From positions 1-64,000 of the IMG/VR virus record IMGVR_UViG_3300021962_000072: a stretch of DNA of 64,000 nucleotides, one strand, 5' to 3'. Made by a program: the position numbers and the translations under genes. Positions 43,066 through 53,823 of this stretch are shown piece after piece. Below the pieces are notes generated by a model. The model had not been told where the DNA came from. It was given only the letters and a program-made list of their open reading frames with translations, and made no database searches. The stretch is from an uncultured virus (IMG/VR IMGVR_UViG_3300021962_000072). Taxonomy: Duplodnaviria; Heunggongvirae; Uroviricota; Caudoviricetes. How positions within the stretch are numbered: the stretch's first letter is position 1; each line of letters starts with the position of its first letter.

Positions 43066-43094
43066 TTGACAACTAAATAAAGTTACATTATAAT
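43066..43094 (+). promoter_or_regulatory. Sigma70-type promoter P1
   Basis: TTGACA-17-TATAAT. Confidence 0.8.
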
Positions 43095-43127
43095 TTTTGC
43101 AATGGTTAGGAAGAATGCCAAAATAGG

Positions 43128-43156
43128 TTGACAAGCTTCTTAACAGTTGTTATAGT
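43128..43156 (+). promoter_or_regulatory. Sigma70-type promoter P2
   Basis: TTGACA-17-TATAGT. Confidence 0.8.
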
Positions 43157-43195
43157 AAGAACATCGCTGGAAACAGCACAAGGAAAGAAAAGCAA

Positions 43196-43339
43196 ATGAA
43201 ACAATTATCGTTACATAGACAAGCGAAACAGATAGCCCAGTTGGGAGGCTTTATGCCCTCATATTGGTCTGTATGTGAGATTAGTCTATCTAATGATCGT
43301 ACACCAGAATCGGGGTCCTCGGAGGATCGTGTAGCGTAA
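43196..43339 (+). CDS. Putative attenuator leader peptide, 47 aa (MKQLSLHRQAKQIAQLGGFMPSYWSVCEISLSNDRTPESGSSEDRVA)
   Basis: AAGGA upstream; all 20 amino acids occur by codon 36; the 3' end overlaps the antiterminator strand. Confidence 0.65.
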   Translation: MKQLSLHRQAKQIAQLGGFMPSYWSVCEISLSNDRTPESGSSEDRVA

Positions 43340-43369
43340 ACAAAACTACACAAACTTCAAAAGGACCCC
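43312..43369 (+). promoter_or_regulatory. Antiterminator hairpin
   Basis: Nested helices GGGGTCCT/AGGACCCC, GGAG/CTTC and GTGTAG/CTACAC enclose the leader stop codon. Confidence 0.7.
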
Positions 43370-43397
43370 AGGATTAAAAACCCTGGGGTTTTTGTTT
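43365..43397 (+). terminator. Rho-independent terminator, mutually exclusive with the antiterminator
   Basis: ACCCCAGG-loop-CCTGGGGT followed by TTTTGTTT. Confidence 0.85.
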
Positions 43398-43411: not shown

Positions 43412-43570
43412 ATGGAATTTGAGATAGATGACGATTACAAAGTTGAGCACAGTGAAGGATTTGTTTTAACTGAAGAACAATTTAAGAAATTAATTGAATC
43501 TAAAGTGAAAAGAAACACATTTTTTTACTCGTTAGACAAAGTGCGGGAACGTAAGGAAGACCTTTCGTAG
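43412..43570 (+). CDS. 52-aa hypothetical protein (MEFEIDDDYK...), not in the ORF track
   Basis: AAAGGA RBS; first ORF past the attenuator; TAG stop. Confidence 0.55.
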   Translation: MEFEIDDDYKVEHSEGFVLTEEQFKKLIESKVKRNTFFYSLDKVRERKEDLS

Positions 43571-43577
43571 AACGCGA

Positions 43578-43804
43578 AGTGTGATAGGGAACGCGACCCT
43601 GCAGGGCACTATAAAAATCTTGCTACTAATGTGGGCGGCCTACCGGATGGTAAGTCTAGGGCGACAACCTAGATGCGTAAAATGGTAGCGTATTAAAGTG
43701 TTCTATCGACCTCTGAACAAGGCGGCGCATAGCGTACATAGAGCACTTTAATACACACTCTTCATTCAGCCCCTGACGCTGTCTAAAACCATAGGGAAGA
43801 GTGT
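43578..43804 (+). ncRNA. Unknown structured RNA(s)
   Basis: 17-bp stem 43690-43706/43738-43754; 9-bp stem 43755-43763/43796-43804; GCTACTA/TGGTAGC and TCTAGG/CCTAGA helices. Confidence 0.5.
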
Positions 43805-43818
43805 TTAACCAAAAAGTA

Positions 43819-43846
43819 TTGACAAGTAAAATAACTTGTATATAAT
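43819..43846 (+). promoter_or_regulatory. Sigma70-type promoter upstream of the large ncRNA
   Basis: TTGACA-16-TATAAT. Confidence 0.7.
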
Positions 43847-43852
43847 AGAGAC

Positions 43853-44740
43853 TTAGGGCAGTTTATTGTCCTGTAGCGTATGGTTCGCCCAGCGTTACGA
43901 AGAATAACTGTGGTGACACAGCCAAAGCTAGAATGCCTACATACTAGCGCCAGCAATGGTTCACGTAAACAAGCCTGCTCACTACCGCGAGGTAGCGTTC
44001 ACTGATAAGACCGGTGGATGTAACTGTGAAGCAAGTGTTAGGGAAAGAATGTGCGTCGACAGGCCGTAAGGAACCTGGGCGTATGAAAAGTAACAGGTGG
44101 TGCTGACTTCCTAACAAAACCAACTTGCGAACAGGTATGAGAAAGGGTAGTGCATTGGTTCGAGATGTTGCAGTCAAGAGCTCGTGTGCAATGTTAATGG
44201 TTAGTGGACTGTTTTGATGCAGGACACCGATCGTGAAACATCACTGAGTAGTCCGCAAGACAAAAGGTATGTGGTGAGTTGTATTCAGTAGTCCAAAAGA
44301 TTATTGAGCAACAGAGGTAGCTCATCACGGTAGGTTCGATATAGCTCATTCGGTAGAGCATCTGTATGTTAAACAGACGGCAGTTGGTTCGATTCCAACT
44401 ATCAACACAAAAATGCAAAGACTGCCTCGGTCATACGTGAAAAGCATCTAATGCTTGACACGCAAGTGAATCAAGCCTAGTAAAGCTCGCAAGGTGATAC
44501 TAGTTTGTATTGGAAGTTTCGTAAAGTGTTAGCGCACTTGAATGGCTCGCAAGGTCAACGGGATAGATGATACAGAATAGCGTATGACGACAAGACTACT
44601 GCCTGTCTTTAAAAACGGCGATGCTGGTAGCAGACATAGGTACCGCAAGGGCTTATGTGGATGTCGAGAGAAGCTGTGCTCGCAAGGTGCAGTATAATGC
44701 TCGAGGTGTTACTGGTTAAAGTGTAATCTCAGCTTTAACA
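43853..44740 (+). ncRNA. Large structured ncRNA, GOLLD-like
   Basis: ~0.9 kb with no credible ORF; six CGCAAG (GNRA) capped hairpins plus GCGA/GTAA loops; embedded tRNA; terminal hairpin GTTAAAGT/GCTTTAAC; adjacent to a phage tRNA array. Family assignment is from size and context only. Confidence 0.6.
44334..44407 (+). tRNA. tRNA-Asn(GTT)-like element embedded in the large ncRNA; imperfect acceptor stem, no CCA
   Basis: TAGCTCATTCGGTAGAGC D arm; TCTGT-ATGTTAA-ACAGA; GTTGG-TTCGATT-CCAAC. Confidence 0.65.
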
Positions 44741-44827
44741 CTATTCTAAAACATATTGGCCACAGCCTAGACGCATAGAAATAGGATGCATAGCATATTG
44801 TCGTCAGTGTATTTCAGAATAGTTTTT

Positions 44828-44912
44828 GGATGTGTAGGAAAATTGGTAACCCCAGTGGACTGTAAATCCGCCGCCTCTGGCACTGCTGGTTCGACTCCAG
44901 CCGCATCCACCA
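44828..44912 (+). tRNA. tRNA-Tyr(GTA)
   Basis: Cloverleaf, long variable arm, CCA. Confidence 0.9.
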
Positions 44913-44918
44913 AAGAAT

Positions 44919-44993
44919 GTATCCCTAGTGTCAACGGCAGCACGACAGTCTCCAAAACTGCTAGTCGGGGTTCGAATCCCTGGGGGTACGCCA
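44919..44993 (+). tRNA. tRNA-Trp(CCA)
   Basis: Anticodon loop CTCCAAA; CCA end. Confidence 0.9.
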
Positions 44994-45090
44994 GTAAAGT
45001 CTTAATGGGAGAGTTGCGGGAGGAGACTTTTACGTAAAGTCGCCGCTCACTCTTAAACAACAGCCCTGTGTGTCCCTTAGCAGTTTTTAT

Positions 45091-45166
45091 GCACGGTTCG
45101 TCTATCGGTCGAGGACGCTGCCCTTTCAAGGCGGAAAGACGGGTTCGATTCCCGTACCGTGTACCA
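45091..45166 (+). tRNA. tRNA-Glu(TTC)
   Basis: Loop CTTTCAA; CCA end. Confidence 0.9.
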
Positions 45167-45171
45167 GTTAT

Positions 45172-45249
45172 GCACCGGTGGCAGAGAGGCCCAATGCAGT
45201 GGATTGCAAATCCATAAAACCGTAGGTTCAAATCCTACCCGGTGCTCCA
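45172..45249 (+). tRNA. tRNA-Cys(GCA)
   Basis: Loop TTGCAAA; U73 discriminator; CCA. Confidence 0.9.
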
Positions 45250-45278
45250 TTGACAAACTAATTTTTATACTATACACT
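45250..45278 (+). promoter_or_regulatory. Sigma70-type promoter for the nuclease-like ORF
   Basis: TTGACA-17-TACACT, 5 nt before the ATG (probably leaderless). Confidence 0.6.
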
Positions 45279-45283
45279 GTAGT

Positions 45284-45784
45284 ATGGGAATTAAATTTAG
45301 AAAATCATTAGCTGTAGGCCAAGTATGGGAATCCAAGATGGAGAAATGGATGGACCAATACTTCGCTAATACAAACTGGGAAGTCAATGATACCCGAGAC
45401 GTACATAGAGACGAGGACGGAGATCAATTTCCCGACTATGTTCTTTACAATACTGAGACAGAAAAGATCTGTTTTATAGATGCTAAGAAAAGAAACTGTT
45501 ACGAAATGTATGGTCAAAGATACTTTGGCTTTGATGAACGATTCTATAACAGTTATAAAAACATAGCTAAGAAACACGATACAAAAGTTTACATAGGATT
45601 CAATGATCCTAAGTTTGATCCAGACCATGTCTATATCCTAGACATGGATCTACCTCACAGTAAAAAATTATTCTTTAGTAATGAGCATGGCACTAGTTAT
45701 GCTTATCGTTGGAGTGTAGACATTCTAACAAAATTTAAAATCGAAGGAAGTGTGGCAGAGTCCGGTTTATTGCACCTGTCTTGA
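45284..45784 (+). CDS. PD-(D/E)XK nuclease-like protein inserted in the tRNA array
   Basis: GQVWE...FPDY...FIDAKKR motif order; the 3' end runs into tRNA-Ser. Confidence 0.65.
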   Translation: MGIKFRKSLAVGQVWESKMEKWMDQYFANTNWEVNDTRDVHRDEDGDQFPDYVLYNTETEKICFIDAKKRNCYEMYGQRYFGFDERFYNSYKNIAKKHDTKVYIGFNDPKFDPDHVYILDMDLPHSKKLFFSNEHGTSYAYRWSVDILTKFKIEGSVAESGLLHLS

Positions 45785-45835
45785 AAACAGACGATCAGAA
45801 ATGGTCCGTGAGTTCGAATCTCACCGCTTCCGCCA
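45746..45835 (+). tRNA. tRNA-Ser(TGA)
   Basis: Loop CTTGAAA; long variable arm; G73; CCA. Confidence 0.9.
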
Positions 45836-45841
45836 ACATTA

Positions 45842-45916
45842 GGTCTCAAAGTGTTCATGGACGCACATCAGCCTGTCACGCTGAAAGAAGGGGATCGTTA
45901 CCCCTTGGGACCGCCA
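45842..45916 (+). tRNA. tRNA-Asp(GTC)
   Basis: Loop CTGTCAC; T-loop variant ATCGTTA. Confidence 0.9.
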
Positions 45917-45918
45917 AC

Positions 45919-45993
45919 GGTAACGTAGCATAATGGTCGTGCAACAGCTTCATACGCTGCAAGGTATAGGTTCGAGTCCTATCGTTACCACCA
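45919..45993 (+). tRNA. tRNA-Met/Ile2(CAT)
   Basis: Loop TTCATAC; G1-C72 paired. Confidence 0.85.
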
Positions 45994-46003
45994 AATAAAA
46001 TTT

Positions 46004-46078
46004 GCCTCAGTAGCTCAGTGGTAGAGCAACGTCTTGATAAGGCGTAGGTCGGTGGATCGTTCCCACCCTGCGGCACCA
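46004..46078 (+). tRNA. tRNA-Ile(GAT)
   Basis: Loop TTGATAA; T-loop ATCGTTC. Confidence 0.9.
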
Positions 46079-46081
46079 AGT

Positions 46082-46305
46082 TTGTAGCGTTAGCAAGTAA
46101 AAAGCACATTGTAAAAAGGTTCGAAACTTAATACAATGTAGAGCAGGAGGGGGTTCGACTCCCCACCGTCCATTCCGGGCGGTAGCTGAAGTGGAAGCGC
46201 CTGGCTTAGTAGCCCAAGTAACATGTCCTGGAAAACCTCCGCATAAGGAAGTCCGGCTCTGTATGCGTAAACACTAGCGATGAACCTGAGGACGCTAGGC
46301 TACAA
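46082..46305 (+). ncRNA. Unknown ~225-nt structured RNA with two T-loop-like hairpins
   Basis: Closing stem TTGTAGC/GCTACAA; ACATTGTA/TACAATGT enclosing AAGGTTCGAAACTT; GGGGG-TTCGACT-CCCC; CTAGCG/CGCTAG. Confidence 0.6.
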
Positions 46306-46314
46306 TCCTTTAAC

Positions 46315-46393
46315 CTGGGTGTAATGTCAATCTGCGTAGACGGCGATCTTTGGAAGATCGAGGTTGTAGGTTCGAATCCTACCATCCAGACCA
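46315..46393 (+). tRNA. tRNA-Pro(TGG), atypical D arm
   Basis: CGATC-TTTGGAA-GATCG; CCA. Confidence 0.8.
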
Positions 46394-46396
46394 ATT

Positions 46397-46471
46397 CGGC
46401 CTGTAGCTCAGTGGAAGAGTTCTGGTCTTCGAAACCAGCTGTCGGGAGTTCGAATCTCTCCAGGCCGGCCA
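46397..46471 (+). tRNA. tRNA-Arg(TCG)
   Basis: Loop CTTCGAA. Confidence 0.85.
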
Positions 46472-46473
46472 AT

Positions 46474-46549
46474 ACCCCTGTAACTCATTGGACAGAGTAC
46501 GATGCTACGAACATCGGAGTAGGAGGTTCGATTCCTTCCAGGGGTGCCA
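46474..46549 (+). tRNA. tRNA-Arg(ACG)
   Basis: Loop CTACGAA. Confidence 0.9.
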
Positions 46550-46556
46550 GAAATAT

Positions 46557-46641
46557 GCGAGCGTGGTGGAATTGGTATACACAGCAGACTTAAAATCTGC
46601 CGCCTTCGGGATTGAGGGATCGTGACCCTCCGCTCGCACCA
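46557..46641 (+). tRNA. tRNA-Leu(TAA)
   Basis: Loop CTTAAAA; variable arm; T-loop ATCGTGA. Confidence 0.9.
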
Positions 46642-46644
46642 AAT

Positions 46645-46726
46645 GCCCCTGTGGCCAAATTGGTAAAGGCAGCTCTCTCAAAAGGAGTGTTAGTTTCTCC
46701 CGGTTCGAGTCCGGGCAGGGGTACCA
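46645..46726 (+). tRNA. tRNA-Leu(CAA)
   Basis: Loop CTCAAAA; shortened variable region. Confidence 0.85.
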
Positions 46727-46903
46727 TTAAAGGAGAAAACAAAATGGGGCGATCGCAGTTATTATTTTGGTTGTAGTAGGATTAATTTGGATAGACAAAA
46801 ATTTAAAATAGGAGAATGGCATGAAGGTAGGTAAACCTTAGTGTCGCCCGGTACTCCGTGTGGTCCGGGTTGGCACAGTAAATCAATCTAATACGGACTA
46901 TAC

Positions 46904-46979
46904 GGAGGTATAGCTCAATGGCTAGAGCAACCGGCTTTTAACCGGTAGGTTCAGGGTTCGAGTCCCTGTGCCTCCACCA
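46904..46979 (+). tRNA. tRNA-Lys(TTT)
   Basis: Loop CTTTTAA. Confidence 0.9.
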
Positions 46980-46984
46980 ATTTT

Positions 46985-47060
46985 GCTGCTTTAGCTGATG
47001 TGGTCATAGCACCGGTCTGAAGAACCGAGGAACGTGGTTCGATCCCACGAGGCAGCACCA
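46985..47060 (+). tRNA. tRNA-Phe(GAA)
   Basis: Loop CTGAAGA. Confidence 0.9.
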
Positions 47061-47065
47061 AATAT

Positions 47066-47139
47066 AGCGGTATGGTGTAATGGTAACACAACTGACTTTG
47101 ACTCAGTCGTTCTAGGTTCGAGCCCTGGTACCGCCGCCA
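47066..47139 (+). tRNA. tRNA-Gln(TTG)
   Basis: Loop CTTTGAC. Confidence 0.9.
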
Positions 47140-47145
47140 CACAAT

Positions 47146-47219
47146 GGTGTCTTTAGTGTAGTGGTAGCAAAGCTGACTGTGAATCAGCAGGCGAGGGTTC
47201 GATTCCCCAAGGCACCCCA
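47146..47219 (+). tRNA. tRNA-His(GTG)
   Basis: Loop CTGTGAA; G-1/C73. Confidence 0.9.
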
Positions 47220-47230
47220 AGGAGATAATT

Positions 47231-47416
47231 ATGAAGCCTGTAACTTTTGAAAACATTCTTAATCACGAAAAATTTGTTTGTGAGAACACGCGAGATGTGC
47301 AGGTAATAGATGGTGTTGAATATCTCGTCGTTCATAGGCCTAGTCAGGAAAGACGATTCTTAATGCGCAAGGATACTCTAAAAAAATTAGAAAAGAGACT
47401 TGACACAGCTAAGTAA
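47231..47416 (+). CDS. Hypothetical protein (61 aa)
   Basis: AAGGAG RBS. Confidence 0.7.
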   Translation: MKPVTFENILNHEKFVCENTRDVQVIDGVEYLVVHRPSQERRFLMRKDTLKKLEKRLDTAK

Positions 47417-47427
47417 TTTGCTATAAT
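47400..47427 (+). promoter_or_regulatory. Sigma70-type promoter inside the tRNA array
   Basis: TTGACA-16-TATAAT with extended -10 TG. Confidence 0.7.
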
Positions 47428-47435
47428 AGATTTAT

Positions 47436-47519
47436 GCCCCGGTGGTGGAATGGTAGACACGTTGGTCTTAGAAGCCAATGTCGCAAGGCGTGAGAGTTCG
47501 AGTCTCTCCTGGGGCACCA
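47436..47519 (+). tRNA. tRNA-Leu(TAG)
   Basis: Loop CTTAGAA; variable arm. Confidence 0.9.
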
Positions 47520-47528
47520 AGGATAATC

Positions 47529-47750
47529 ATGGAAGAGATTAATTTCGCAAAATTTACCAAAGACATGGCGGACTTTGAAAAGAAACTGCCTAATGTCGAC
47601 TTCGTAGTAGAACAAGTTGAAAGCCCTCATGACGCAGACGAAATAATGTGGGTACTTGAGATACAAGGGGACAAACTTCATTTTCCTACATATAAAGAAA
47701 TGAAACAGTATCTAACTAAAGTTTCTAAAGAGATAGGGAAAAAGAAATAA
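47529..47750 (+). CDS. Hypothetical protein
   Basis: ATG after AAGGA, downstream of the tRNA. Confidence 0.65.
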   Translation: MEEINFAKFTKDMADFEKKLPNVDFVVEQVESPHDADEIMWVLEIQGDKLHFPTYKEMKQYLTKVSKEIGKKK

Positions 47751-47825
47751 GCATCGTTAGCTCAGTGGTAGAGCAGGGCCCTTACAAGGCCAAGGTCGGG
47801 AGTTCAACCCTCTCACGATGCACCA
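47751..47825 (+). tRNA. tRNA-Val(TAC)
   Basis: Loop CTTACAA. Confidence 0.9.
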
Positions 47826-47830
47826 AAAAT

Positions 47831-47929
47831 GCCTCCGTAGCTTAATGGTAAAGAAGCGAGCTTATACCTCGCCAAAGCACAGGCCAGATAAGCCTGAGTG
47901 TGCAGGTTCGAGTCCTGCCGGAGGCACCA
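47831..47929 (+). tRNA. tRNA with TAT anticodon (Ile AUA) and a ~29-nt variable arm
   Basis: GCCTCCG/CGGAGGC-A-CCA; GCGAG-CTTATAC-CTCGC; variable arm CAGGC/GCCTG. Confidence 0.8.
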
Positions 47930-47969
47930 ATTTATTATAGAAAACTATTTTTCTATAATATATACAAAT

Positions 47970-49574
47970 ATGAAAATAAAAAATATAGTTATAGTCGGTG
48001 GCGGCACTTCTGGCTGGTTTACAGCAGGAGCTCTTTCAAAAGTCTATGATCAATTTAATATCACTTTGATAGAGTCTCCGGATATTCCAAAGATTGGAGT
48101 AGGAGAAAGTGTTACACCGCACGTACAAGGATTTTTTGATTTTCTAGAAATTGACACAAAGCACTGGATGAATGAAACTGGTGCTGTTTATAAATTAGCT
48201 AACAAGTTCACTGGATGGATCACTGGGGATCAAAATGAATCCGAATATTTTGGATTTTCGTATCCTTCCGCAGCAGAGTTGCTGTACAGAGAAACTTCAG
48301 AATTAGTCAGCTACAACGATTTAAAATATCCAGAGAGTACTGTTAAAACAACAGATGTATTTTCTCAACTGTTGTTAGATGGTTCCATAGACAAGTTTGA
48401 TAGGTATTGGAGTAGTGCATATCATTACATGGAGAAAAACGTTTCTCCGTTTTTAAATGACAAGTATCTACTTAATCAGTTTTACAGCTGGAGTCAACAC
48501 ATCAACGCAGATAAATGCGGAGACTATGTAAGAGATTTTATTGCATTACCGAACGGTGTGAAACATATTTCTAAAAAAGTCATAGAAGTAAAATGTGAAC
48601 AGGATAAAATATCATCCGTTGTTTTAGAAGATGGAGAAGTTGTTACAGCTGATTTGTTTGTTGATGCTTCTGGTTTCGCGAGACTGTTAGTCAAAGCACT
48701 AAACTGGAATGTGATTCCCTACAAAGATTATGCCATCGATACTGCTGTAGTTGCACAATTAGAATATAACGACATACAAAAAGAGTTAGTAAATTACACA
48801 CAATCGATAGCACAACCCAACGGATGGATGTTTAAGATCGGTTTATATCATAGGATGGGATGTGGACTTTGTTTTAGTTCTAGTCACTTAGATGTTGAAC
48901 AGGCTATAGACGAGTACAAAAAACTAAATTCTAATAGAAGATTAGAACCCAGAGTGCTATCCTGGAAACCTGCTAGATTAGAACAATTTGCCAATGGTAA
49001 CGTAGCCACTGTAGGACTGTGTTCTGGTTTCTACGAACCATTAGAAGCAAATGCGTTATACATTTTGATCAGTGGAATATACGAATTGATCAACAGTTTA
49101 GACGGATATAAAAAAACTGGAAACTTAGATTGGTCCAATTACAATAAGAAACTGGCATACACCATTGACGATCTAACAGATTTTATAAAGATACATTACA
49201 CTCTTAGTAAGAGAACTGACACTGACTTTTGGAACGACATGCGATCGATCGGCGACAAAGAACGTCACGAAGATTTGATTTTTCAAAAGTATAGCGATGG
49301 AAGAAATTCCATAACCAATGCTAAAGACCATTGGACATTATTTGCAGAATATATGTGGTTGCAGTTAGCGGCTTCTTGGAAATTAGATTTATCTAAATTT
49401 AAGAAAGATTCGATAACTAAAAATCAGTTGAACTTAGGACGTCATTATTTTACTTCGAGAGAAGTAAAGCACGATTTAATCAGCGATGACTTACCTAATA
49501 ATTATGAATGGTTAAAAGAAAATATATTCCAGGATGTAGATTATAAAACCTGGGAAAGAAAGTATCTCAAGTGA
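47970..49574 (+). CDS. Flavin-dependent halogenase (tryptophan halogenase family)
   Basis: VGGGTSGW, IGVGESV, DLFVDASGF, GWMFKI and FYEPLEA. Confidence 0.85.
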   Translation: MKIKNIVIVGGGTSGWFTAGALSKVYDQFNITLIESPDIPKIGVGESVTPHVQGFFDFLEIDTKHWMNETGAVYKLANKFTGWITGDQNESEYFGFSYPSAAELLYRETSELVSYNDLKYPESTVKTTDVFSQLLLDGSIDKFDRYWSSAYHYMEKNVSPFLNDKYLLNQFYSWSQHINADKCGDYVRDFIALPNGVKHISKKVIEVKCEQDKISSVVLEDGEVVTADLFVDASGFARLLVKALNWNVIPYKDYAIDTAVVAQLEYNDIQKELVNYTQSIAQPNGWMFKIGLYHRMGCGLCFSSSHLDVEQAIDEYKKLNSNRRLEPRVLSWKPARLEQFANGNVATVGLCSGFYEPLEANALYILISGIYELINSLDGYKKTGNLDWSNYNKKLAYTIDDLTDFIKIHYTLSKRTDTDFWNDMRSIGDKERHEDLIFQKYSDGRNSITNAKDHWTLFAEYMWLQLAASWKLDLSKFKKDSITKNQLNLGRHYFTSREVKHDLISDDLPNNYEWLKENIFQDVDYKTWERKYLK

Positions 49575-49580
49575 AACATT

Positions 49581-49675
49581 GGAGTGTTGGCCGAGTTGGT
49601 CGAAGGCACCTTCCTGCTAAGAAGGCATGTGGGCAAAAACCTGCATCATTGGTTCGAATCCAATACACTCCGCCA
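49581..49675 (+). tRNA. tRNA-Ser(GCT)
   Basis: Loop CTGCTAA; long variable arm. Confidence 0.9.
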
Positions 49676-49695
49676 AATTTTTAAAAAGGAAAAAT

Positions 49696-49878
49696 ATGTT
49701 AAAACCAGGCGCTAATTATAGAATGTCAAAACCTCTAAAGACAAGTTTAGCATTGTCTAAGTTTCAAGATCCTCACAAAAAGGCTCAGTGGAAACGTGCA
49801 ATGATACAAGCCGAGATGGCTGCGTTGATTAAACCAGTATCGTCGAGATCTCGAAATAAAGACAAAGCAGAAGAATAA
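49696..49878 (+). CDS. Small basic hypothetical protein
   Basis: AAGGA RBS, 60 aa. Confidence 0.6.
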   Translation: MLKPGANYRMSKPLKTSLALSKFQDPHKKAQWKRAMIQAEMAALIKPVSSRSRNKDKAEE

Positions 49879-49886
49879 CTCGTCTA

Positions 49887-50366
49887 ATGAAAAAGAGGAT
49901 TTTAATAATTATAGATCCCTGGGAATTAGATTGGATTAATATTTTACTTTTTCCGTTGTCAGCGCATTATGCTGTGTTGAGAAATATCAAAAGATTCGTT
50001 GAATCGAGAAATGACATCGACACTATAGTCATAGCTGCATACGATAACAAGAAAGCATCTTCTATAGTATGTAATCTTAAAGGTAAAAAAATTTACGCCA
50101 CTACTATCGATGAGATTAAATTCTTACTAGATGACGATACCGTCGATGGAATATTCTTAGCAGGAATGGCTTGGAATATGTGTGTAAGAAACAGAGAACT
50201 AGGATACTTAAATCTATCCAAGTTTTCTGGTAATAAAGATTTGTTAGTAAAAAATGATTGTGTTATATATTCTGGAGAATACGATTCTAAATATTTTGAT
50301 CCTTTAGAAAATCCGGAATGGTTACCAGTAGAAAAAAACGTTTATAAGTACACAATGGGGGTATAG
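49887..50366 (+). CDS. Isochorismatase/cysteine hydrolase-like protein
   Basis: LIIIDPW and LAGMAWNMCV motifs. Confidence 0.55.
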   Translation: MKKRILIIIDPWELDWINILLFPLSAHYAVLRNIKRFVESRNDIDTIVIAAYDNKKASSIVCNLKGKKIYATTIDEIKFLLDDDTVDGIFLAGMAWNMCVRNRELGYLNLSKFSGNKDLLVKNDCVIYSGEYDSKYFDPLENPEWLPVEKNVYKYTMGV

Positions 50367-50432
50367 CTCAGCTGGGAGAGCAGTAGCTTTGCAAGCTAAA
50401 GGTCATCGGTTCGATCCCGTTTACCTCCACCA
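50357..50432 (+). tRNA. tRNA-Ala(TGC)
   Basis: G3:U70; loop TTTGCAA. Confidence 0.92.
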
Positions 50433-50446
50433 AATAAGAGGATAAT

Positions 50447-50614
50447 ATGTCAAAAACAAATCATGCAGATCCAATGAAAACAAAAACAGGAAAGACTAGA
50501 CTAGGACCACTTAATCTAGTACAATTACGTGAGATGTTAGAAAAGAGCTCTCGTCCAAAAGACAAGAGCAAGATTCAAAATAGAATCAGGACATTAGAAT
50601 CAAGAAGTAAGTAA
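50447..50614 (+). CDS. 55-aa basic protein (MSKTNHADPMKTKTGKTRLGPL...), not in the ORF track
   Basis: GAGGA RBS; fills the gap between tRNAs. Confidence 0.6.
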   Translation: MSKTNHADPMKTKTGKTRLGPLNLVQLREMLEKSSRPKDKSKIQNRIRTLESRSK

Positions 50615-50620
50615 AGTTTC

Positions 50621-50694
50621 GCCCTTATAGTTAAATGGTATAACGACGGTTTTGTAATCCGTAGTTTGCAGTTCGATTCTGTGTAGGGGCACCA
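50621..50694 (+). tRNA. tRNA-Thr(TGT)
   Basis: Loop TTTGTAA. Confidence 0.9.
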
Positions 50695-50701
50695 AACACA
50701 T

Positions 50702-50777
50702 TCCCCGGTAGCTCAGCGGTAGTAGCAGTTGACTGTTAATCAATTGGTCGGAAGTTCGATCCTTCCCCGGGGAGCCA
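50702..50777 (+). tRNA. tRNA-Asn(GTT)
   Basis: Loop CTGTTAA. Confidence 0.9.
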
Positions 50778-50804
50778 AAATAAAGAAAAATTTAAGACAA
50801 CTGG

Positions 50805-50832
50805 TTGACATTAGTTTTAAATCAACTATAAT
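50805..50832 (+). promoter_or_regulatory. Sigma70-type promoter
   Basis: TTGACA-16-TATAAT. Confidence 0.7.
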
Positions 50833-50838
50833 AGTTTT

Positions 50839-51110
50839 GCTGAGGTAGTAATACCAAAGCCGGTGAAGTAGAGGGTAGAAGAGAATAGACAATCGTTTTC
50901 GCCCATAAGCGAATACGAACTAATCCTGGCAAACAGTCTTGAAAACTGTTCGTGCTTGAGTGAACCGATTCTTATATACCTGTCAATTGCTAATCGGAAA
51001 TATTCAGGTCTCTGTAGCCTGTCTATTGCATATTGTCCAGACCGACGACATCGCACAATAGGTCTTGTCAATTGTCCGGTCTATTACTTGACCCTTTACC
51101 GACCCGTTAA
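50839..51110 (+). ncRNA. ~270-nt structured leader/ncRNA with repeated TGTCWATTG
   Basis: Long-range pairing of 50861-50890 with 51079-51101; motif copies at 50981, 51020 and 51066. Confidence 0.5.
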
Positions 51111-51125
51111 CATAGAGAGGCACAA

Positions 51126-51698
51126 ATGAAAGTAACATTACGTAAAGCAAATGCAATTCAAAACAGCATCAACGATGCCGTTAAAAATATCAAAGTAGAG
51201 TTCAATGTAACTCTCAACGAATTTCAAAATCCAGAAGCTGAGATTGAAAAAGCCAATCAGAAGATGCTGGAAAATGATCTCCGAAGGACTAACCTGTTGG
51301 TTGCCCTTTACAACATTCGCGGACTAGTGTGTGCCGCAAATGCCGAAAGCGGAATCGATCTTAAGCTGACTAAAGCAGCTTTCATCGACAAGCGTGTTGC
51401 ACAACTGACTGAAATCGTTGGTCGTGACACTGTCACTGACATCGAAGTTGTCAAAGGCAAACTTGAGAAGATCAAGAATTTGAAAGACGAAGCACGTAGT
51501 CGTATCTATGGCTACGGTGACACTGTTGAAACCAGTGTGTTGCGAGTAGGAGACATTGATCGTTTCCGTGCTCAATTAAATGATCTCAAGAAACAGAAAC
51601 AATCTTTGAATGATGAAGTTCTTGAGTTAAACATCAAAACTGAGATCCCTCTCAGCGATGAAGTTGTTGCAACTCTTCAACTAGAAGGATTAATCTAA
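51126..51698 (+). CDS. Coiled-coil protein (weak resemblance to the DIP1984/septicolysin-like family)
   Basis: GAGG RBS; helical heptad pattern; C-terminal LELNIKTEI. Confidence 0.6.
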   Translation: MKVTLRKANAIQNSINDAVKNIKVEFNVTLNEFQNPEAEIEKANQKMLENDLRRTNLLVALYNIRGLVCAANAESGIDLKLTKAAFIDKRVAQLTEIVGRDTVTDIEVVKGKLEKIKNLKDEARSRIYGYGDTVETSVLRVGDIDRFRAQLNDLKKQKQSLNDEVLELNIKTEIPLSDEVVATLQLEGLI

Positions 51699-51902
51699 CA
51701 GACCCCGGGGTCCCTTCCTCGTTATTAAAGGGGGTAATTGACTTCACCAAAACGTCAGGGTGCAAACGGTAATCGACCCCAAGGCCTTTTCGGCGACTTG
51801 AGACACCGTGGCGGCAGAAGCAGAACTGGCGACAAAAATTTAAATACTGATCGACAGGGTAGACAACTCAGTCTAGGGCGGAACAGGGAACTGTAGCTAG
51901 AC

Positions 51903-52046
51903 ACTTTTGTTAATGGTACAGCTCGTGGGCTAATGTACACAGCTAACCTTGCCCAAAGCGGAAAGCCTATGATACTAGTAAATGGTCTGTGTAACAGATC
52001 AACAATAGGTAGCAAGAGGGTAGTAAACTGTACCATTAACAAAAGT
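51903..52046 (+). repeat. Perfect 19-bp inverted repeat enclosing a ~106-nt structured core
   Basis: ACTTTTGTTAATGGTACAG (51903-51921) / CTGTACCATTAACAAAAGT (52028-52046). Confidence 0.85.
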
Positions 52047-52050
52047 TTGA

Positions 52051-52126
52051 CGCAGGGTGTTAGAAGCGGTATCTGGCAAGGCTCATAACCTTGAGGTCGG
52101 GGGTTCGATTCCCTCCCCTGCAACCA
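52051..52126 (+). tRNA. tRNA-fMet-like (CAT)
   Basis: C1:A72 mismatch; loop CTCATAA. Confidence 0.85.
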
Positions 52127-52231
52127 TTTTAGGGAATAGCACTCTTGACGCATCGTTATTGTGCTCATTTTAAATAACAAAGATGACATTAGTATTGTAG
52201 ATACTTTTAGTTGTTGTGCCCTAAATCTATT

Positions 52232-52308
<77 letters not shown>

Positions 52309-52357
52309 ATTTCGCCCTGACACATGGCGTATAATAGGATAAGTAGTGTGTCTCAAT

Positions 52358-52433
<76 letters not shown>

Positions 52434-52444
52434 AAGGATAATAT

Positions 52445-52855
52445 ATGTTAGAATGTTTAATCGTAGGCGACAGTATTGCAGTAGGAACAGCTAACGTAAG
52501 GAAAGAATGCGTTAGTTACAGTGTTGGCGGGATCAACAGTTGGGGCTGGAATAAAAAGTTTGCTGAAAAAAATATAGCAGCAAGCACAGTTATCATCAGT
52601 CTCGGAACTAATGACCATTCTGGTGTTCATACTTTTAAAGAATTGTCTGCTATGCGGGCCAGAGTAGAAGCAGATAAAGTGTTCTGGATCTTGCCGCCTT
52701 GTAATGACAAGTTCTGTAAACCCAACGTTAATGATATCGTTAACATAATCGCAAGAAGCCGAGGAGATACTATCATTAAAACAGATCGTTTACAAAAAGA
52801 TTCAATACATCCTAGCTGGGCAGGTTATAAAGAACTTGCAGAAAAATCAAGATGA
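52445..52855 (+). CDS. SGNH/GDSL hydrolase
   Basis: GDSIA, LGTND and DSIHP. Confidence 0.85.
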   Translation: MLECLIVGDSIAVGTANVRKECVSYSVGGINSWGWNKKFAEKNIAASTVIISLGTNDHSGVHTFKELSAMRARVEADKVFWILPPCNDKFCKPNVNDIVNIIARSRGDTIIKTDRLQKDSIHPSWAGYKELAEKSR

Positions 52856-52873
52856 TGCTACAGTAATATCTAT

Positions 52874-52947
52874 GCGGGGTTCGTATAGTGGTAATACCTC
52901 AGCCTTCCAAGCTGATGCGGAGAGTTCGATTCTCTTACCCCGCTCCA
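52874..52947 (+). tRNA. tRNA-Gly(TCC)
   Basis: Loop CTTCCAA. Confidence 0.92.
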
Positions 52948-52952
52948 AATAT

Positions 52953-53029
52953 CTGACTGTAGCTCAACTGGATAGAGCAACAGCCTTCTAAGCTGTAGGT
53001 CGGGGGTTCGAGTCCCTCCAGTCAGGCCA
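52953..53029 (+). tRNA. tRNA-Arg(TCT)
   Basis: Loop CTTCTAA. Confidence 0.92.
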
Positions 53030-53033
53030 AATT

Positions 53034-53108
53034 CTCCCTATAGTTAAATGGATATAACAAAACACTCCTAAGGTTTAGTTGTAGGTTCGATTCCTACTGG
53101 GGAGGCCA
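53034..53108 (+). tRNA. tRNA-Arg(CCT)
   Basis: Loop CTCCTAA. Confidence 0.85.
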
Positions 53109-53119
53109 TAAATATCCAC

Positions 53120-53764
53120 ATGAACATATTAATATTAGGCGACAGTTGGGGGGTCCCAAATTACTACGGACCGCCCGGAGTTGATGCAAAATACCATACA
53201 GAATTTCTACTAAAAGATCTAGGGTACACAGTTTACAACTGTGCTAACAATGGCGGATCTAATCTAGCATCGATTAGTTCAGCAAAGAATCATTTAATAT
53301 CTAAAATAGATTGGATCATTTGGTTTCACACAGAATCTCTAAGAGATAGGAATCTTTTCGATGCTGATAAATCATTCCTTATAAATGATGTTATAGAAAG
53401 TAATTCTAGAATAATCTATCAGGAATTTGATAAACTTAAAAAGTTCACCTCGGCTAAAACATTAGTCATTGGTGGACAGGCAAAATTATTAGATTGTTTC
53501 TATGAGATAACATCTGCAGATTTTGTGATTCCTGATTGGCGCAGTTCTATTTTTGGCAAACAATTTCCAACTGTACATACACTCTGTCATTTGGACCTCA
53601 TAGAAAAATCCGCAGACAGTTTAGAGTTTAAAAACCGTCTTTTAAAAGATCACAAAACTATCTTAGATCAAATGAAATGGTCTGAAGATTTTCCGGATAA
53701 CTGCCATCCTGGAATCCGACCACATAGAGAACTAGTAGAAAAATTTTCGGCTCTCATAGTATAA
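53120..53764 (+). CDS. SGNH hydrolase-like protein
   Basis: GDSWG, GGSN and DNCHP. Confidence 0.7.
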   Translation: MNILILGDSWGVPNYYGPPGVDAKYHTEFLLKDLGYTVYNCANNGGSNLASISSAKNHLISKIDWIIWFHTESLRDRNLFDADKSFLINDVIESNSRIIYQEFDKLKKFTSAKTLVIGGQAKLLDCFYEITSADFVIPDWRSSIFGKQFPTVHTLCHLDLIEKSADSLEFKNRLLKDHKTILDQMKWSEDFPDNCHPGIRPHRELVEKFSALIV

Positions 53765-53823
53765 AGGTATTACACTACATTGGTAATGTAGAAACACTGG
53801 ATCGTTACCAGTTGGGAGCACCA
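53750..53823 (+). tRNA. tRNA-Thr(GGT)
   Basis: Loop TTGGTAA; T-loop ATCGTTA; overlaps the upstream CDS end. Confidence 0.85.

What the first reader, a model, noticed from the sequence alone, without database searches (positions are those of the whole stretch)
43066..43397. Leader peptide containing all 20 amino acids, coupled to an attenuator at the head of the tRNA/ncRNA island: candidate global translation-stress sensor
Seen: two tandem sigma70 promoters, then an RBS and a 47-codon ORF (43196-43339) in which every one of the 20 amino acids has appeared by codon 36. Its last codons form the 5' strand of a nested hairpin (GGGGTCCT/AGGACCCC, GGAG/CTTC, GTGTAG/CTACAC) that sequesters the left arm of a strong intrinsic terminator (ACCCCAGG/CCTGGGGT-TTTTGTTT). 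Established: in ribosome-mediated attenuation (trp, his) a stalled ribosome permits the antiterminator, but those leaders sense one or a few amino acids through repeated codons. Inference: a ribosome reaching the stop melts the antiterminator and transcription terminates, while a stall at any depleted or cleaved tRNA allows read-through into an island of 31 tRNAs covering all 20 amino acids. That would be a phage switch supplying tRNAs on demand. Caveats: internal promoters at 43819, 47400 and 50805 could bypass it, and stalls near codon 36 may partly cover the antiterminator.
Basis: partly seen in the sequence, partly recalled or inferred. Interest (0 to 1): 0.92.

Follow-up and report, generated by a model that had tools for sequence, protein, structure and literature searches.

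The report
All-amino-acid leader attenuator heading phage tRNAs
A tiny translated gene that spells out all 20 amino acids and ends inside a stop-or-go RNA switch sits at the head of the tRNA gene array in this lake phage and many relatives, and probably lets transcription run on whenever ribosomes read slowly.

Summary
Two consensus promoters, a 47-codon ORF (43196-43339) with all 20 amino acids by codon 36, and a nested hairpin share ACCCC with a strong intrinsic terminator.

Comparative data support it:
- 118 related phage loci were found. 88 of 91 complete distinct ORFs hold all 20 amino acids.
- A phylogeny-aware null never reached the observed 79 of 82 (0 of 1000).
- Both the antiterminator and terminator helices covary. 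They share four columns, and the shared outer pair is the best-covarying pair of the alignment.
- The stop codon always lies in the apex of the antiterminator.
- 45 of 46 loci have a same-strand tRNA within 1200 nt downstream.

Best reading (about 0.65): this is a ribosome-mediated attenuator whose whole leader acts as a decoding-speed sensor.

- The switch directly precedes a conserved ~55-aa ORF and a new ~240-nt structured RNA, not tRNAs.
- 39 of 66 relatives have a bypass promoter before the first tRNA.
- An unbiased census gives 41 of 61 leaders complete.
- The last residues needed lie at the edge of the predicted sensing window.

Nothing is shown experimentally. Five literature searches found no description. 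This scan has noted such leaders before on other phage DNA.

The parts
43066..43094 (+). Promoter P1 (TTGACA-17-TATAAT)
   Evidence: 12 of 12 consensus match. 81 of 82 relatives have a >=10/12 promoter within 120 nt of the ATG.
43128..43156 (+). Promoter P2 (TTGACA-17-TATAGT with TG)
   Evidence: 11 of 12 match. Its -10 ends 39 nt before the ATG.
43180..43187 (+). Purine-rich Shine-Dalgarno-like stretch AAGGAAAG
   Evidence: Read. An SD-like word lies within -20..-4 in 43 of the 66 relatives that have only a distal promoter. 15 of 82 instead have a -10 box ending <=12 nt before the ATG, the leaderless type.
43196..43339 (+). Leader ORF, 47 codons plus TAA, all 20 amino acids, 28 of 32 codon classes
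   Evidence: Homologs P0001-P0007 and 118 loci. 88 of 91 complete distinct ORFs have all 20.
43312..43319 (+). Antiterminator 5' arm GGGGTCCT, inside codons 39-42
   Evidence: Alignment columns 156-162 pair with 225-231 in 99.7% of cells, and 5 of 7 pairs show compensatory changes.
43321..43358 (+). Inner stems of the antiterminator (GGAG/CTTC and GTGTAG/CTACAC) with the TAA stop (43337-43339) at the apex
   Evidence: The stop lies in or next to the apical hairpin in 82 of 82 and the hairpin has a median of 19 pairs. The stop lies 15-24 nt after the 5' arm and 22-32 nt before the 3' arm.
43362..43369 (+). Antiterminator 3' arm AGGACCCC; ACCCC is shared with the terminator
   Evidence: Column 231 pairs with column 156 (GC 54, AU 24, GU 3) and with column 247 (CG 54, UG 23, UA 5).
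43365..43397 (+). Intrinsic terminator: ACCCCAGG, 9-nt loop, CCTGGGGT, TTTTGTTT
   Evidence: 98.8% of cells are paired and 4 of 7 pairs are compensatory.
43412..43570 (+). ORF2, 52 aa, the first gene behind the switch (family motif LTxEQxxKLIxxKFERA)
   Evidence: Found 13-19 nt after the terminator with a good RBS in 67 of 82 relatives. No Pfam, PHROG or NCBIfam match. The predicted fold is two helices, pLDDT 83.6.
43571..43815 (+). Conserved structured RNA of unknown class between ORF2 and the next promoter
   Evidence: Up to 95% identical in relatives. Present in 78 of 118 loci. 39 distinct full-length copies give 48 consensus pairs, 28 with compensatory changes. No Rfam match.
43819..43846 (+). 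Promoter P3, which bypasses the switch
   Evidence: 12 of 12 match. 39 of 66 relatives have a >=10/12 promoter between the terminator and the first tRNA.
44271..44735 (+). GOLLD RNA (Rfam-modelled part) with tRNA-Asn inside it
   Evidence: RF02032, 225.6 bits, E 3.3e-63. tRNA-Asn at 44335-44408.
44335..53823 (+). tRNA island: 30 tRNA genes for all 20 amino acids
   Evidence: and 31 RF00005 matches over the family's gathering score in this span.

Best explanation
This is a ribosome-mediated transcription attenuator built from two competing hairpins, in which the whole leader ORF is the sensor.

Proposed mechanism:
1. Transcription starts at P1 or P2 and a ribosome translates the 47-codon leader.
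2. The last ~9 codons encode the 5' strand of a ~19-bp antiterminator hairpin. The 3' strand of that hairpin shares four to five bases with the left arm of an intrinsic terminator.
3. If the lead ribosome keeps pace with RNA polymerase, it sits on or just past the 5' strand when the 3' strand emerges. Its A site is then within the last ~11 codons or on the stop codon. The antiterminator cannot close, the terminator forms and transcription ends at 43397.
4. If the ribosome is late for any reason, the antiterminator folds first and polymerase reads on. Possible reasons are a shortage or cleavage of almost any tRNA, lack of an amino acid, or few free ribosomes.
5. Read-through runs into ORF2, the conserved structured RNA and then GOLLD and the tRNA array.

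The leader carries (nearly) every amino acid and 26-32 of 32 codon classes. No upstream protector hairpin restricts where a stall counts. The device therefore reports overall decoding speed rather than one amino acid.

Shown by computation: the parts, their conservation, the covariation, the geometry, the selection on composition and the position at the head of tRNA arrays.

Inferred: that the ORF is translated, that ribosome position decides the fold, the direction of the response, and the biological use (tRNA supply feedback or a response to tRNA-targeting host defence).
For: (1) A large family exists. There are 38 viral loci, and the metagenome scan found 95 relatives of which 80 were kept, giving 118 loci and 96 distinct cores.

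(2) The frame is conserved. There are 0 stops in frame 0 in 82 of 82, and the other two frames are open in 0 of 82. All indels are in frame, ORFs are 42-53 aa, and the stop is TAA in 81 of 82.

(3) Composition is selected.
- 88 of 91 complete distinct ORFs have all 20 amino acids.
- Sole-copy residues move between columns: Cys, His, internal Met, Phe, Thr.
- Re-drawing every inferred substitution on the tree gives mean 17.4, 16.3 or 46.7 complete leaves of 82. The maximum is 72 and 0 of 1000 runs reach the observed 79.

(4) Codon-class coverage is high. The window's leader covers 28 of 32 classes and relatives a median of 30 (range 26-32). Random 47-codon windows of this phage's genes average 22.3 with a maximum of 29.

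(5) Both helices covary. The antiterminator is 99.7% paired with 5 of 7 pairs compensatory, 0 of 500 shuffles as high, and slid controls give 15-67% pairing. The terminator is 98.8% paired with 4 of 7 compensatory. They share columns 228-231, and pair 156-231 has the highest mutual information of the whole alignment.

(6) The two states are near iso-energetic.
- Forced-state energies have medians of -30.75 and -28.95 kcal/mol.
- The nascent RNA, before the terminator's 3' arm exists, folds into the antiterminator in 80 of 82.
- Ensemble scan with a ribosome footprint: P(antiterminator) is 0.98 with no ribosome and 0.91-0.98 with the A site 14 or more codons before the stop. P(terminator) is 1.0 with the A site 2-10 codons before the stop.

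(7) Position is conserved. A same-strand tRNA lies within 1200 nt downstream in 45 of 46 loci, and any tRNA within 1200 nt upstream in 6 of 66. A promoter lies upstream in 81 of 82.

(8) A census that does not depend on the peptide agrees. Of 78 loci anchored on the downstream RNA, 73 have an ORF plus a terminator-like run. Of 61 distinct leaders, 41 hold 20 amino acids, 7 hold 19 and 7 hold 18. Control ORFs of 40-60 aa from the same stretches give 2 of 61. The other 5 loci also carry the element on inspection. 14 of the 78 carry leaders too diverged for the nucleotide profile, yet those leaders are still rich in residue types.
Against: - There is no experimental evidence and no transcript-end data. 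The RNA-library contigs hold the leader only at low depth and cannot show ends.
- The sensing window does not clearly include all 20 residues. With a leading edge 12 nt past the A-site codon's first base, only 23 of 82 leaders are complete before the arm. With a laxer boundary that allows two more codons, 74 of 82 are. Thr36 is this leader's only Thr and lies at the switch point. 47 of 82 relatives have no Glu before it.
- With the ribosome on the stop codon itself, the energy model gives P(antiterminator) 0.64. My claim that it cannot close there rests on sterics that the model ignores.
- Without any translation the default is read-through, and no protector (1:2-like) helix is supported. The long hairpin in the ORF body is only 72% paired and shows no compensatory change.
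- Synonymous positions of the core (GCC, GGC, CCC, TAT, GAT, ACA, CCA) are almost invariant. This points to an extra RNA-level or peptide-level constraint that I cannot explain.
- The codon-level effect beyond the peptide is weak: 29.4 against 27.3 classes, and for the window itself p = 0.38.
- A Shine-Dalgarno-like word is missing in 23 of 66 relatives with a 5' UTR.
- Bypass promoters lie before the first tRNA in 39 of 66.
- In 5 of 5 phages whose leader lacks 2-5 amino acids, tRNAs for those residues are still encoded.
Confidence: 0.65

Rival explanations
1. The conserved peptide core or the RNA core is the real sensor of one specific signal. One form would be a nascent-chain arrest motif that holds the ribosome over the 5' arm. 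Another would be an RNA motif bound by a factor. The complete amino-acid set would then be secondary.
For: The GFMPSYW and NDRTP(E) blocks are invariant or nearly so across the family. Their synonymous positions are almost frozen, which the speed-sensor model does not need. A ribosome held at the NDRTPE codons would cover the 5' arm and favour termination. From recall only, not tested: known arrest peptides (SecM, TnaC) have a Trp about 11-12 residues before a critical Pro preceded by Arg, and here Trp24 to Pro37 spans 11-15 residues in different relatives.
Against: - The spacer between the two blocks varies by in-frame indels, which fits a fixed exit-tunnel geometry poorly.
- Diverged leader families at the same place lack these blocks yet keep 18-20 residue types.
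- This reading does not explain why completeness survives substitution.
Confidence: 0.12
2. This is an ordinary small-protein gene with its own terminator. The long hairpin would be an mRNA-stability or RNase III processing element, and the composition would be incidental to the peptide's own function.
For: The ORF is conserved with promoter, start and stop. A ~19-bp hairpin is the kind of substrate that double-strand RNases cut (recalled). Strong promoters downstream make the tRNAs independent of it in 39 of 66 relatives.
Against: - The N- and C-terminal thirds of the peptide are free to change, while the residue set is kept.
- The hairpin and the terminator cannot coexist, yet both covary, including at the shared position.
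- The placement of the stop codon inside the hairpin is fixed.
- The peptide has no family or fold match.
Confidence: 0.1
3. The terminated ~235-nt leader transcript is itself the product. It would be a trans-acting or dual-function small RNA, as described for the attenuator RNA rnTrpL. This is not exclusive of attenuation.
For: The stretch 43160-43400 folds far better than shuffles, z = -5.9 with 0 of 200 as good. Nucleotide conservation is high, including synonymous sites. It has its own strong promoter and terminator. Precedent: PMC6614838 and PMC7968998, of which I saw only the search listings and the start of the abstracts.
Against: No target is known. The helices of the ORF body lack compensatory changes. 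The frame conservation and the selection on composition require translation.
Confidence: 0.08
4. The peptide is a precursor (RiPP-like) modified by the divergently encoded radical-SAM enzyme at 42009-42983.
For: A radical-SAM gene lies 213 nt upstream on the other strand, and 11 radical-SAM ORFs fill 24430-42983.
Against: Only 3 of 118 leader loci have a homolog of that enzyme within 2.5 kb, and two of these are the window's own contig. None of 79 relatives of the enzyme has the leader or tRNAs beside it.
Confidence: 0.02

Closest known systems
Leader-peptide transcription attenuators of enterobacterial amino-acid operons (trpL, hisL, leuL, pheL; the multivalent thrL and ilvL)
   Same: Both have a promoter, a short translated leader, an antiterminator that overlaps an intrinsic terminator, a stop codon placed so that a ribosome finishing the leader prevents the antiterminator, and read-through when the ribosome is held back upstream. 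This is established knowledge, recalled, and compared.
   Different: - There are no runs of one regulatory codon; instead every amino acid appears about once to a few times.
- No supported protector or pause hairpin exists, so the untranslated default is read-through.
- The leader is 42-53 codons long.
- It lies in phages, in front of a small ORF, a structured RNA and tRNA genes rather than biosynthetic enzymes.
- No Rfam family of any kind, leader families included, reaches its gathering score on 43050-43880; the only overlapping rows are chance-level, E 3.8 and 4.7.
toiL, the uORF upstream of E. coli topAI-yjhQ that senses several classes of ribosome-targeting antibiotics (PMC12121999; I saw only the search listing and the start of the abstract)
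   Same: It is a short upstream ORF used as a general sensor of translation stress, read out through ribosome stalling.
   Different: As I recall it, unread here, toiL acts through Rho and the accessibility of a downstream ribosome-binding site, not through an intrinsic-terminator switch. It is not described as compositionally complete. It is a host gene, not a phage one.
T-box riboswitches
   Same: They are a transcription antitermination switch whose input is the state of tRNA, with an antiterminator competing with a terminator (established knowledge, recalled).
   Different: T-boxes bind one specific uncharged tRNA directly and need no translation. Here there is no T-box match, the sensor is a translated ORF, and the input would be any tRNA.
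Antibiotic-sensing leader peptides of resistance genes (ermCL, bmrB-type; recalled, not read)
   Same: They use a two-hairpin logic without a protector helix. A ribosome stalled in the leader frees or blocks one strand and so changes expression downstream.
   Different: Those stall at one defined peptide motif in the presence of a drug. Here a stall anywhere in about 35 codons would count, and the composition itself is under selection.

Membership tests
Ribosome-mediated (leader-peptide) transcription attenuators | Short ORF with a start codon directly behind a promoter and ahead of the regulated genes | tested here: met
   ATG..TAA of 47 codons. Open in 82 of 82 relatives, and in that frame only. 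A promoter lies upstream in 81 of 82.
Ribosome-mediated (leader-peptide) transcription attenuators | Mutually exclusive antiterminator and intrinsic terminator that share bases | tested here: met
   Columns 228-231 are shared. Both helices are 98.8% paired or better, with 5 of 7 and 4 of 7 compensatory pairs. A U-tract follows.
Ribosome-mediated (leader-peptide) transcription attenuators | Position of the leader's end lets a ribosome that completes translation block the antiterminator | tested here: met
   The 5' arm lies in the last ~9 codons. The stop lies 15-24 nt after it and in the hairpin apex in 82 of 82. A footprint scan gives P(terminator) = 1.0 for the A site 2-10 codons before the stop. 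This is geometry only, not function.
Ribosome-mediated (leader-peptide) transcription attenuators | Clustered regulatory codons for the amino acid(s) whose pathway is controlled | tested here: not met
   There are no runs. All 20 residues are present, many of them once.
Ribosome-mediated (leader-peptide) transcription attenuators | Upstream protector/pause hairpin (1:2) that gives termination when the leader is not translated | tested here: inconclusive
   The ORF body folds into a long hairpin in the window. Across relatives it is 72% paired with no compensatory change. A 4-bp GATC/GGTC pairing is invariant and therefore uninformative.
Ribosome-mediated (leader-peptide) transcription attenuators | Read-through depends on translation and on stalling | not testable with these tools
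   This needs reporters, coupled in-vitro transcription-translation, Term-seq or Ribo-seq. The RNA-library contigs were uninformative.
Rfam RNA families (all 4227 covariance models, the leader-peptide attenuator and T-box families among them) | Match to the covariance model at or near its gathering score | tested here: not met
   No family reaches its gathering score on 43050-43880. The only rows overlapping the leader are chance-level: SpF11 sRNA at 19.4 bits against a gathering score of 54 (E 3.8), and TCV_H4 at 17.1 bits against 50 (E 4.7). One search gave none at E <= 1.
RiPP precursor with a radical-SAM maturase | Conserved adjacency of the peptide gene and the maturase gene | tested here: not met
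   3 of 118 loci have the enzyme nearby. 0 of 79 enzyme relatives have the leader.

The most novel reading that the evidence does not exclude
Phages carry a ribosome-read 'codon pangram'. This is a leader ORF selected to contain every amino acid and almost every codon class. The time a ribosome takes to read it measures the cell's whole decoding capacity. Through a two-hairpin switch, that time gates a module of a small protein, an unknown structured RNA, GOLLD and a complete tRNA set. It would be a general translation-capacity sensor of a kind not described for any cell or virus. It could also be the trigger by which tRNA-rich phages answer tRNA-cutting host defences.
Probability: 0.5. Interest if true: 0.92.

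Novelty: new variant of a known kind. Interest (0 to 1): 0.85.

Why it matters
- Attenuation by leader peptides is textbook, but always for one or a few amino acids and for biosynthetic operons. A leader selected to hold all 20 amino acids would be a new sensing logic: overall decoding speed rather than one metabolite. It would also be the first described cis-control of tRNA-array modules in phages.
- It gives a directly testable handle on an open question, namely why and when large phages express full tRNA sets: for codon supply, or for escape from tRNA-targeting defences. The second idea is raised in PMC11555353, of which I saw only the listing and the start of the abstract.
- It points to two unknown partners that would be co-regulated, a ~55-aa helical protein and a ~240-nt structured RNA.
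- The element is compact (about 330 nt) and could serve as a portable reporter of translational capacity.

Tried and rejected
- blastn of 42900-44400 against 50,697 phage records found no match.
- Anchoring on the neighbouring radical-SAM gene gave 79 relatives, none with the leader or tRNAs beside it. That junction is not syntenic.
- The single 47-aa peptide was too short for the search for related loci. I used an alignment of it with its hits instead.
- Genome contigs gave only 5 partial chance-like matches of 8-22 residues. There is no sign of the element in cellular genomes.
- Rfam has no family for the leader or for the RNA at 43571-43815.
- Contigs of four RNA libraries hold the leader region at low depth (two runs cover ORF sequence, one more only the terminator end), and ends and strand cannot be read from contigs. 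I draw no conclusion from them about termination.
- ORF2 has no Pfam, PHROG or NCBIfam family. The model is a two-helix hairpin. I did not run a fold search on so small a fold.
- The long hairpin of the ORF body is not supported as a protector helix by covariation.
- The synonymous-codon test showed only a weak codon-level effect, and none for the window's own leader.
- I tested whether a leader lacks exactly the amino acids whose tRNAs the phage lacks. This was rejected: all 5 phages examined encode tRNAs for every residue that their leader lacks. 4 of them encode tRNAs for all 20 amino acids, and the fifth, on an incomplete contig, lacks only tRNA-Ala.
- The RiPP-precursor idea was rejected.
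- A second copy of the leader elsewhere in the window was not found.
Full report
WHAT IS THERE. The window is part of an uncultured freshwater phage contig. L001, L081 and L091 are the same IMG/VR record. On the + strand, one search finds consensus promoters at 43066-43094 (12 of 12) and 43128-43156 (11 of 12). One search lists an ATG ORF at 43196-43339 (47 aa). It holds all 20 amino acids, the 20th at codon 36.

Read, the stems are GGGGTCCT 43312-43319 with AGGACCCC 43362-43369, GGAG with CTTC, and GTGTAG with CTACAC. The TAA stop (43337-43339) lies at the apex. Folding the longer stretch instead gives the terminator: ACCCCAGG 43365-43372, a 9-nt loop, CCTGGGGT 43382-43389 and TTTTGTTT. The two structures compete for ACCCC. 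The terminator scan missed it only because its loop limit is 8.

Rfam places a GOLLD RNA at 44271-44735 and tRNAs from 44335 to 53823. No Rfam family matches the leader.

CHANCE FOR ONE SEQUENCE. All 20 residues in 47 positions occurs in 5.1% of simulated peptides and in 292 of 12570 windows of this phage's own long ORFs. For 36 positions the figures are 0.54% and 33 of 13241.

RELATIVES. The phage record collection gave nothing. The neighbouring radical-SAM gene has 79 relatives, but none has the leader or tRNAs beside it. The peptide itself has homologs in the protein collection (7 proteins at 80-89% identity). An alignment of these (A1) recovered 38 viral loci. It also recovered 95 metagenome relatives, of which 80 were kept. 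Together these make 118 loci and 96 distinct cores.

Rows dropped before the counts:
- My start-codon finder failed on 2 of the 96 (L115, L116).
- 3 were cut by contig ends.
- This left 91 complete distinct ORFs.
- 86 had the whole stretch from ATG to the U-tract, of which 82 were distinct. These form alignment A2.

THE ORF IS KEPT AS AN ORF. Frame 0 has no stop in 82 of 82. The other frames carry on average 3.3 and 4.9 stops and are open in 0 of 82. Length changes are all in frame, the peptides are 42-53 aa, and the stop is TAA in 81 of 82. A promoter matching at least 10 of 12 lies within 120 nt of the ATG in 81 of 82. In 15 of 82 a -10 box ends no more than 12 nt before the ATG, the leaderless type. 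Among the 66 with only a distal promoter, 43 have a Shine-Dalgarno-like word.

COMPLETENESS IS SELECTED. 88 of 91 distinct ORFs hold all 20 amino acids. The exceptions are L196 without Val, and L206 and L207 without Cys. The middle of the peptide is conserved (GFMPSYW, NDRTP) but the ends are not, and single-copy residues change place:
- Cys is found in at least five different contexts.
- His moves from SLH to KH, QHK or QQHN.
- When the internal Met of GFM is lost, the Leu four codons earlier becomes Met.
- When Phe of GGF is lost, there is a Phe at RQF.

To separate this from shared ancestry, I built a tree of the 82 sequences and inferred every substitution by parsimony (559 changes). I then re-drew the new residue at each change. 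Three sources were used: background frequencies, BLOSUM62-conditioned frequencies, or (most conservatively) that column's own observed residues. The number of complete leaves was on average 17.4, 16.3 and 46.7, with a maximum of 72. In 0 of 1000 runs of each did it reach the observed 79 of 82.

At the codon level the window's leader uses 28 of 32 classes (codon box times pyrimidine or purine ending, with AUA, AUG and UGG apart). Relatives use a median of 30 (range 26-32). Random 47-codon windows of the phage's genes average 22.3 with a maximum of 29. Most of that comes from the peptide. Given the peptide, random synonymous codons give 27.3 against the observed 29.4, and for the window's own leader the test is not significant (p = 0.38).

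THE SWITCH IS CONSERVED AND COVARIES.
- Antiterminator outer stem, A2 columns 156-162 with 225-231: paired in 99.7% of 574 cells, 5 of 7 pairs with compensatory changes, 0 of 500 shuffles as high, 15-67% pairing when slid.
- Terminator stem, columns 228-234 with 244-250: paired in 98.8% of cells, 4 of 7 pairs compensatory.
- Columns 228-231 belong to both helices.
- Column 231 changes from C to U together with G to A at column 156 (GC 54, AU 24, GU 3, one mismatch). It still pairs with G or A at column 247.
- Pair 156-231 has the highest mutual information of any Watson-Crick-consistent column pair in the alignment.

The inner stems vary too much to align. Folded one sequence at a time, the hairpin has 16-25 pairs (median 19), and the stop codon lies in the apical loop (36 of 82) or in or next to its stem (46 of 82).

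GEOMETRY AND ENERGETICS. The stop codon begins 15-24 nt (mode 16) after the last base of the 5' arm. It ends 22-32 nt before the 3' arm. With one helix or the other enforced, the median energies are -30.75 (antiterminator) and -28.95 kcal/mol (terminator). Before the terminator's 3' arm exists, the nascent RNA folds into the antiterminator in 80 of 82.

I scanned a ribosome footprint along the ORF. It ran from 12 nt before the P-site codon to 11 nt past the first base of the A-site codon; these values are recalled, not measured here. I computed pair probabilities on the transcript ending at the terminator's 3' arm:
- No ribosome: P(antiterminator) median 0.98.
- A site 14 or more codons before the stop: 0.91-0.98.
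- A site 12 codons before the stop: 0.73 (0.13 in the window).
- A site 2-10 codons before the stop: P(terminator) 1.0.
- Ribosome on the stop codon: the model returns 0.64 for the antiterminator. The model cannot know that a 7-bp helix would have to close around a ribosome.

An SD-like word lies 13-18 nt before the stop in 81 of 82. It is part of the second stem and might also slow the ribosome there. That is inference.

WHERE IT SITS AND WHAT IT GATES. A same-strand tRNA lies within 1200 nt downstream in 45 of 46 loci with that much sequence. The 46th has tRNAs 2.1 kb away. Any tRNA lies within 1200 nt upstream in 6 of 66. The first tRNA is Tyr in 24 of 45.

The tRNAs are not the first thing behind the terminator.
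- In 67 of 82 relatives a 50-60-aa ORF with a good ribosome-binding site starts 13-19 nt after the terminator. In the window it is 43412-43570. It evolves like a protein, has no known family, and is predicted to be two helices.
- A ~240-nt RNA follows, at 43571-43815 in the window. It is up to 95% identical in relatives whose leaders differ more. It is present in 78 of 118 loci. Across 39 distinct copies its consensus structure has 48 pairs, 28 with compensatory changes. It has no Rfam match.
- In 39 of 66 relatives a promoter matching at least 10 of 12 lies between the terminator and the first tRNA (33 of them at least 11 of 12). In 20 of these relatives its -10 box ends 8-9 nt before the first tRNA (tRNA-Tyr in all 20). 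The window has such a promoter at 43819.
- No terminator-like site was found on the + strand between 43398 and 44335, so read-through transcripts would run on.

The switch therefore controls the small ORF and the RNA directly. It can only add to tRNA transcription where a bypass promoter exists.

AN UNBIASED CENSUS. The relatives above were found through the peptide, so I also anchored on the downstream RNA. The search returned at least 120 viral loci, of which 80 were fetched. 78 of those have at least 560 nt upstream, and 64 of the 78 match the nucleotide profile of A2. The other 14 carry different short ORFs at the same place, each followed by a U-run about 50 nt after the stop.

By an automatic rule (an ATG ORF of 28-75 aa with a G/T run 35-70 nt after its stop), 73 of 78 loci have a leader. 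There are 61 distinct peptides with a median of 46 aa. 41 hold 20 amino acids, 7 hold 19, 7 hold 18 and 6 hold fewer. One of those six (L214) is a wrong pick, because the proper ORF there has 20. Control ORFs of 40-60 aa in the same stretches have 20 in 2 of 61. They use a median of 22 codon classes against 28 for the leaders.

The five loci missed by the rule carry the element with interrupted U-tracts or an unmatched run. Four of them encode leaders that I checked by eye to have all 20. Completeness is thus a strong tendency across several diverged leader families, not an absolute rule.

EVIDENCE AGAINST, AND LIMITS.
- With the stricter footprint, only 23 of 82 leaders are complete before the ribosome's front reaches the 5' arm. 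With the laxer boundary, which allows two more codons, 74 of 82 are. The last residue to arrive is usually the Glu of TPE. In the window it is Thr36, one codon past the strict boundary. 'Any amino acid' is therefore not secured for each leader.
- Five phages whose leaders lack 2-5 amino acids all encode tRNAs for the residues that their leader lacks. Four encode tRNAs for all 20, and the fifth lacks only Ala on an incomplete contig. The leader is therefore not a one-to-one mirror of the phage's tRNA set.
- The frozen synonymous positions of the core are not explained by a pure speed sensor. The long hairpin of the ORF body is not supported by covariation.
- RNA-library contigs show GOLLD at very high depth and the leader at low depth. 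Contigs cannot show ends, and DNA may be present in such libraries. I take nothing from them.
- There is no experimental evidence at all.

RIVALS. These are: a specific nascent-peptide or RNA-motif sensor (0.12); an ordinary small-protein gene with a stability or processing hairpin (0.10); a trans-acting leader RNA, not exclusive of attenuation (0.08); and a radical-SAM peptide precursor (0.02). The last is nearly excluded, because only 3 of 118 loci have the enzyme nearby.

COMPARISON WITH WHAT IS KNOWN. The device works like the trp/his class of leader-peptide attenuators and meets three of their structural criteria. It fails the criterion of clustered regulatory codons, lacks a supported protector helix, and has a different target. 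I file it as a new variant of that kind, not as a member of any described family. The nearest 'general' translation-stress uORF that I found is toiL (PMC12121999; listing and start of abstract only).

Five full-text searches found no description of a compositionally complete leader or of attenuation in front of phage tRNA genes. I read no paper beyond its listing, and subscription journals are not covered.

EARLIER NOTES OF THIS SCAN. After I had recorded my own reading, look-ups showed that this scan has described all-amino-acid leader attenuators before phage tRNA arrays on other DNA. One of them (e1-6058566) shares words with this leader. They agree with my reading but are not independent evidence.

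VERDICT. The element is a conserved, covarying, translation-coupled terminator switch with a leader under selection to contain the whole amino-acid alphabet. Confidence in the mechanism is 0.65, and interest is 0.85.

Noticed in passing
window 43571-43815: A ~240-nt structured RNA of unknown class lies between ORF2 and the tRNA/GOLLD promoter. It is up to 95% identical in relatives. 39 distinct copies give 48 consensus pairs, 28 with compensatory changes. It has no Rfam match, and at least 120 viral contigs hold its core motif.
   Followed up: partly
window 43412-43570: A conserved 50-60-aa two-helix protein family (motif LTxEQxxKLIxxKFERA) lies directly behind the terminator in 67 of 82 relatives. 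No family or function is known.
   Followed up: partly
window 44271-44735 (RNA contigs from about 43893): GOLLD RNA (225.6 bits) has tRNA-Asn (44335-44408) embedded in it. Its own 12/12 promoter is at 43819. Contig depth in the laid RNA libraries reaches thousands in all four and tens of thousands in one.
   Followed up: no
L094, L106, L136, L145, L149 and 15 more loci (list): In 20 relatives a near-perfect promoter has its -10 box ending 8-9 nt before tRNA-Tyr. Transcription would then start at or next to the mature 5' end of the tRNA, so 5' processing may not be needed.
   Followed up: no
L214, L222, L231, L237, L249, L251, L288 and others: Other short-ORF leader families, too diverged for the nucleotide profile, occupy the same place before ORF2 and the RNA. 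They hold 16-20 amino-acid types in 40-58 residues.
   Followed up: partly
window 24430-42983: Eleven ORFs with radical-SAM matches are packed on both strands just upstream of the leader. This is an unusually large paralog cluster for a phage.
   Followed up: no
window 47898-49574: A tryptophan-halogenase-family flavoenzyme (Pfam E 7.7e-89) is encoded inside the tRNA island.
   Followed up: no
window 56715-57614: An RNA ligase matching the PHROG family annotated 'RNA ligase and tail fiber protein attachment catalyst' (PHROG E 2e-51) lies just downstream of the tRNA island. It is a candidate tRNA-repair enzyme.
   Followed up: no
window 9885-9959: A tRNA with anticodon CTA, called tRNA-Pyl by ARAGORN, lies far from the island. 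It is a possible amber suppressor.
   Followed up: no
window 47831-47926, 46316-46389, 46340-46448: Rfam finds two further tRNA-like genes that ARAGORN does not list (59 and 36.5 bits). It also gives a weak YrlA (Y RNA-like) match, 31.4 bits against a gathering score of 69.
   Followed up: no
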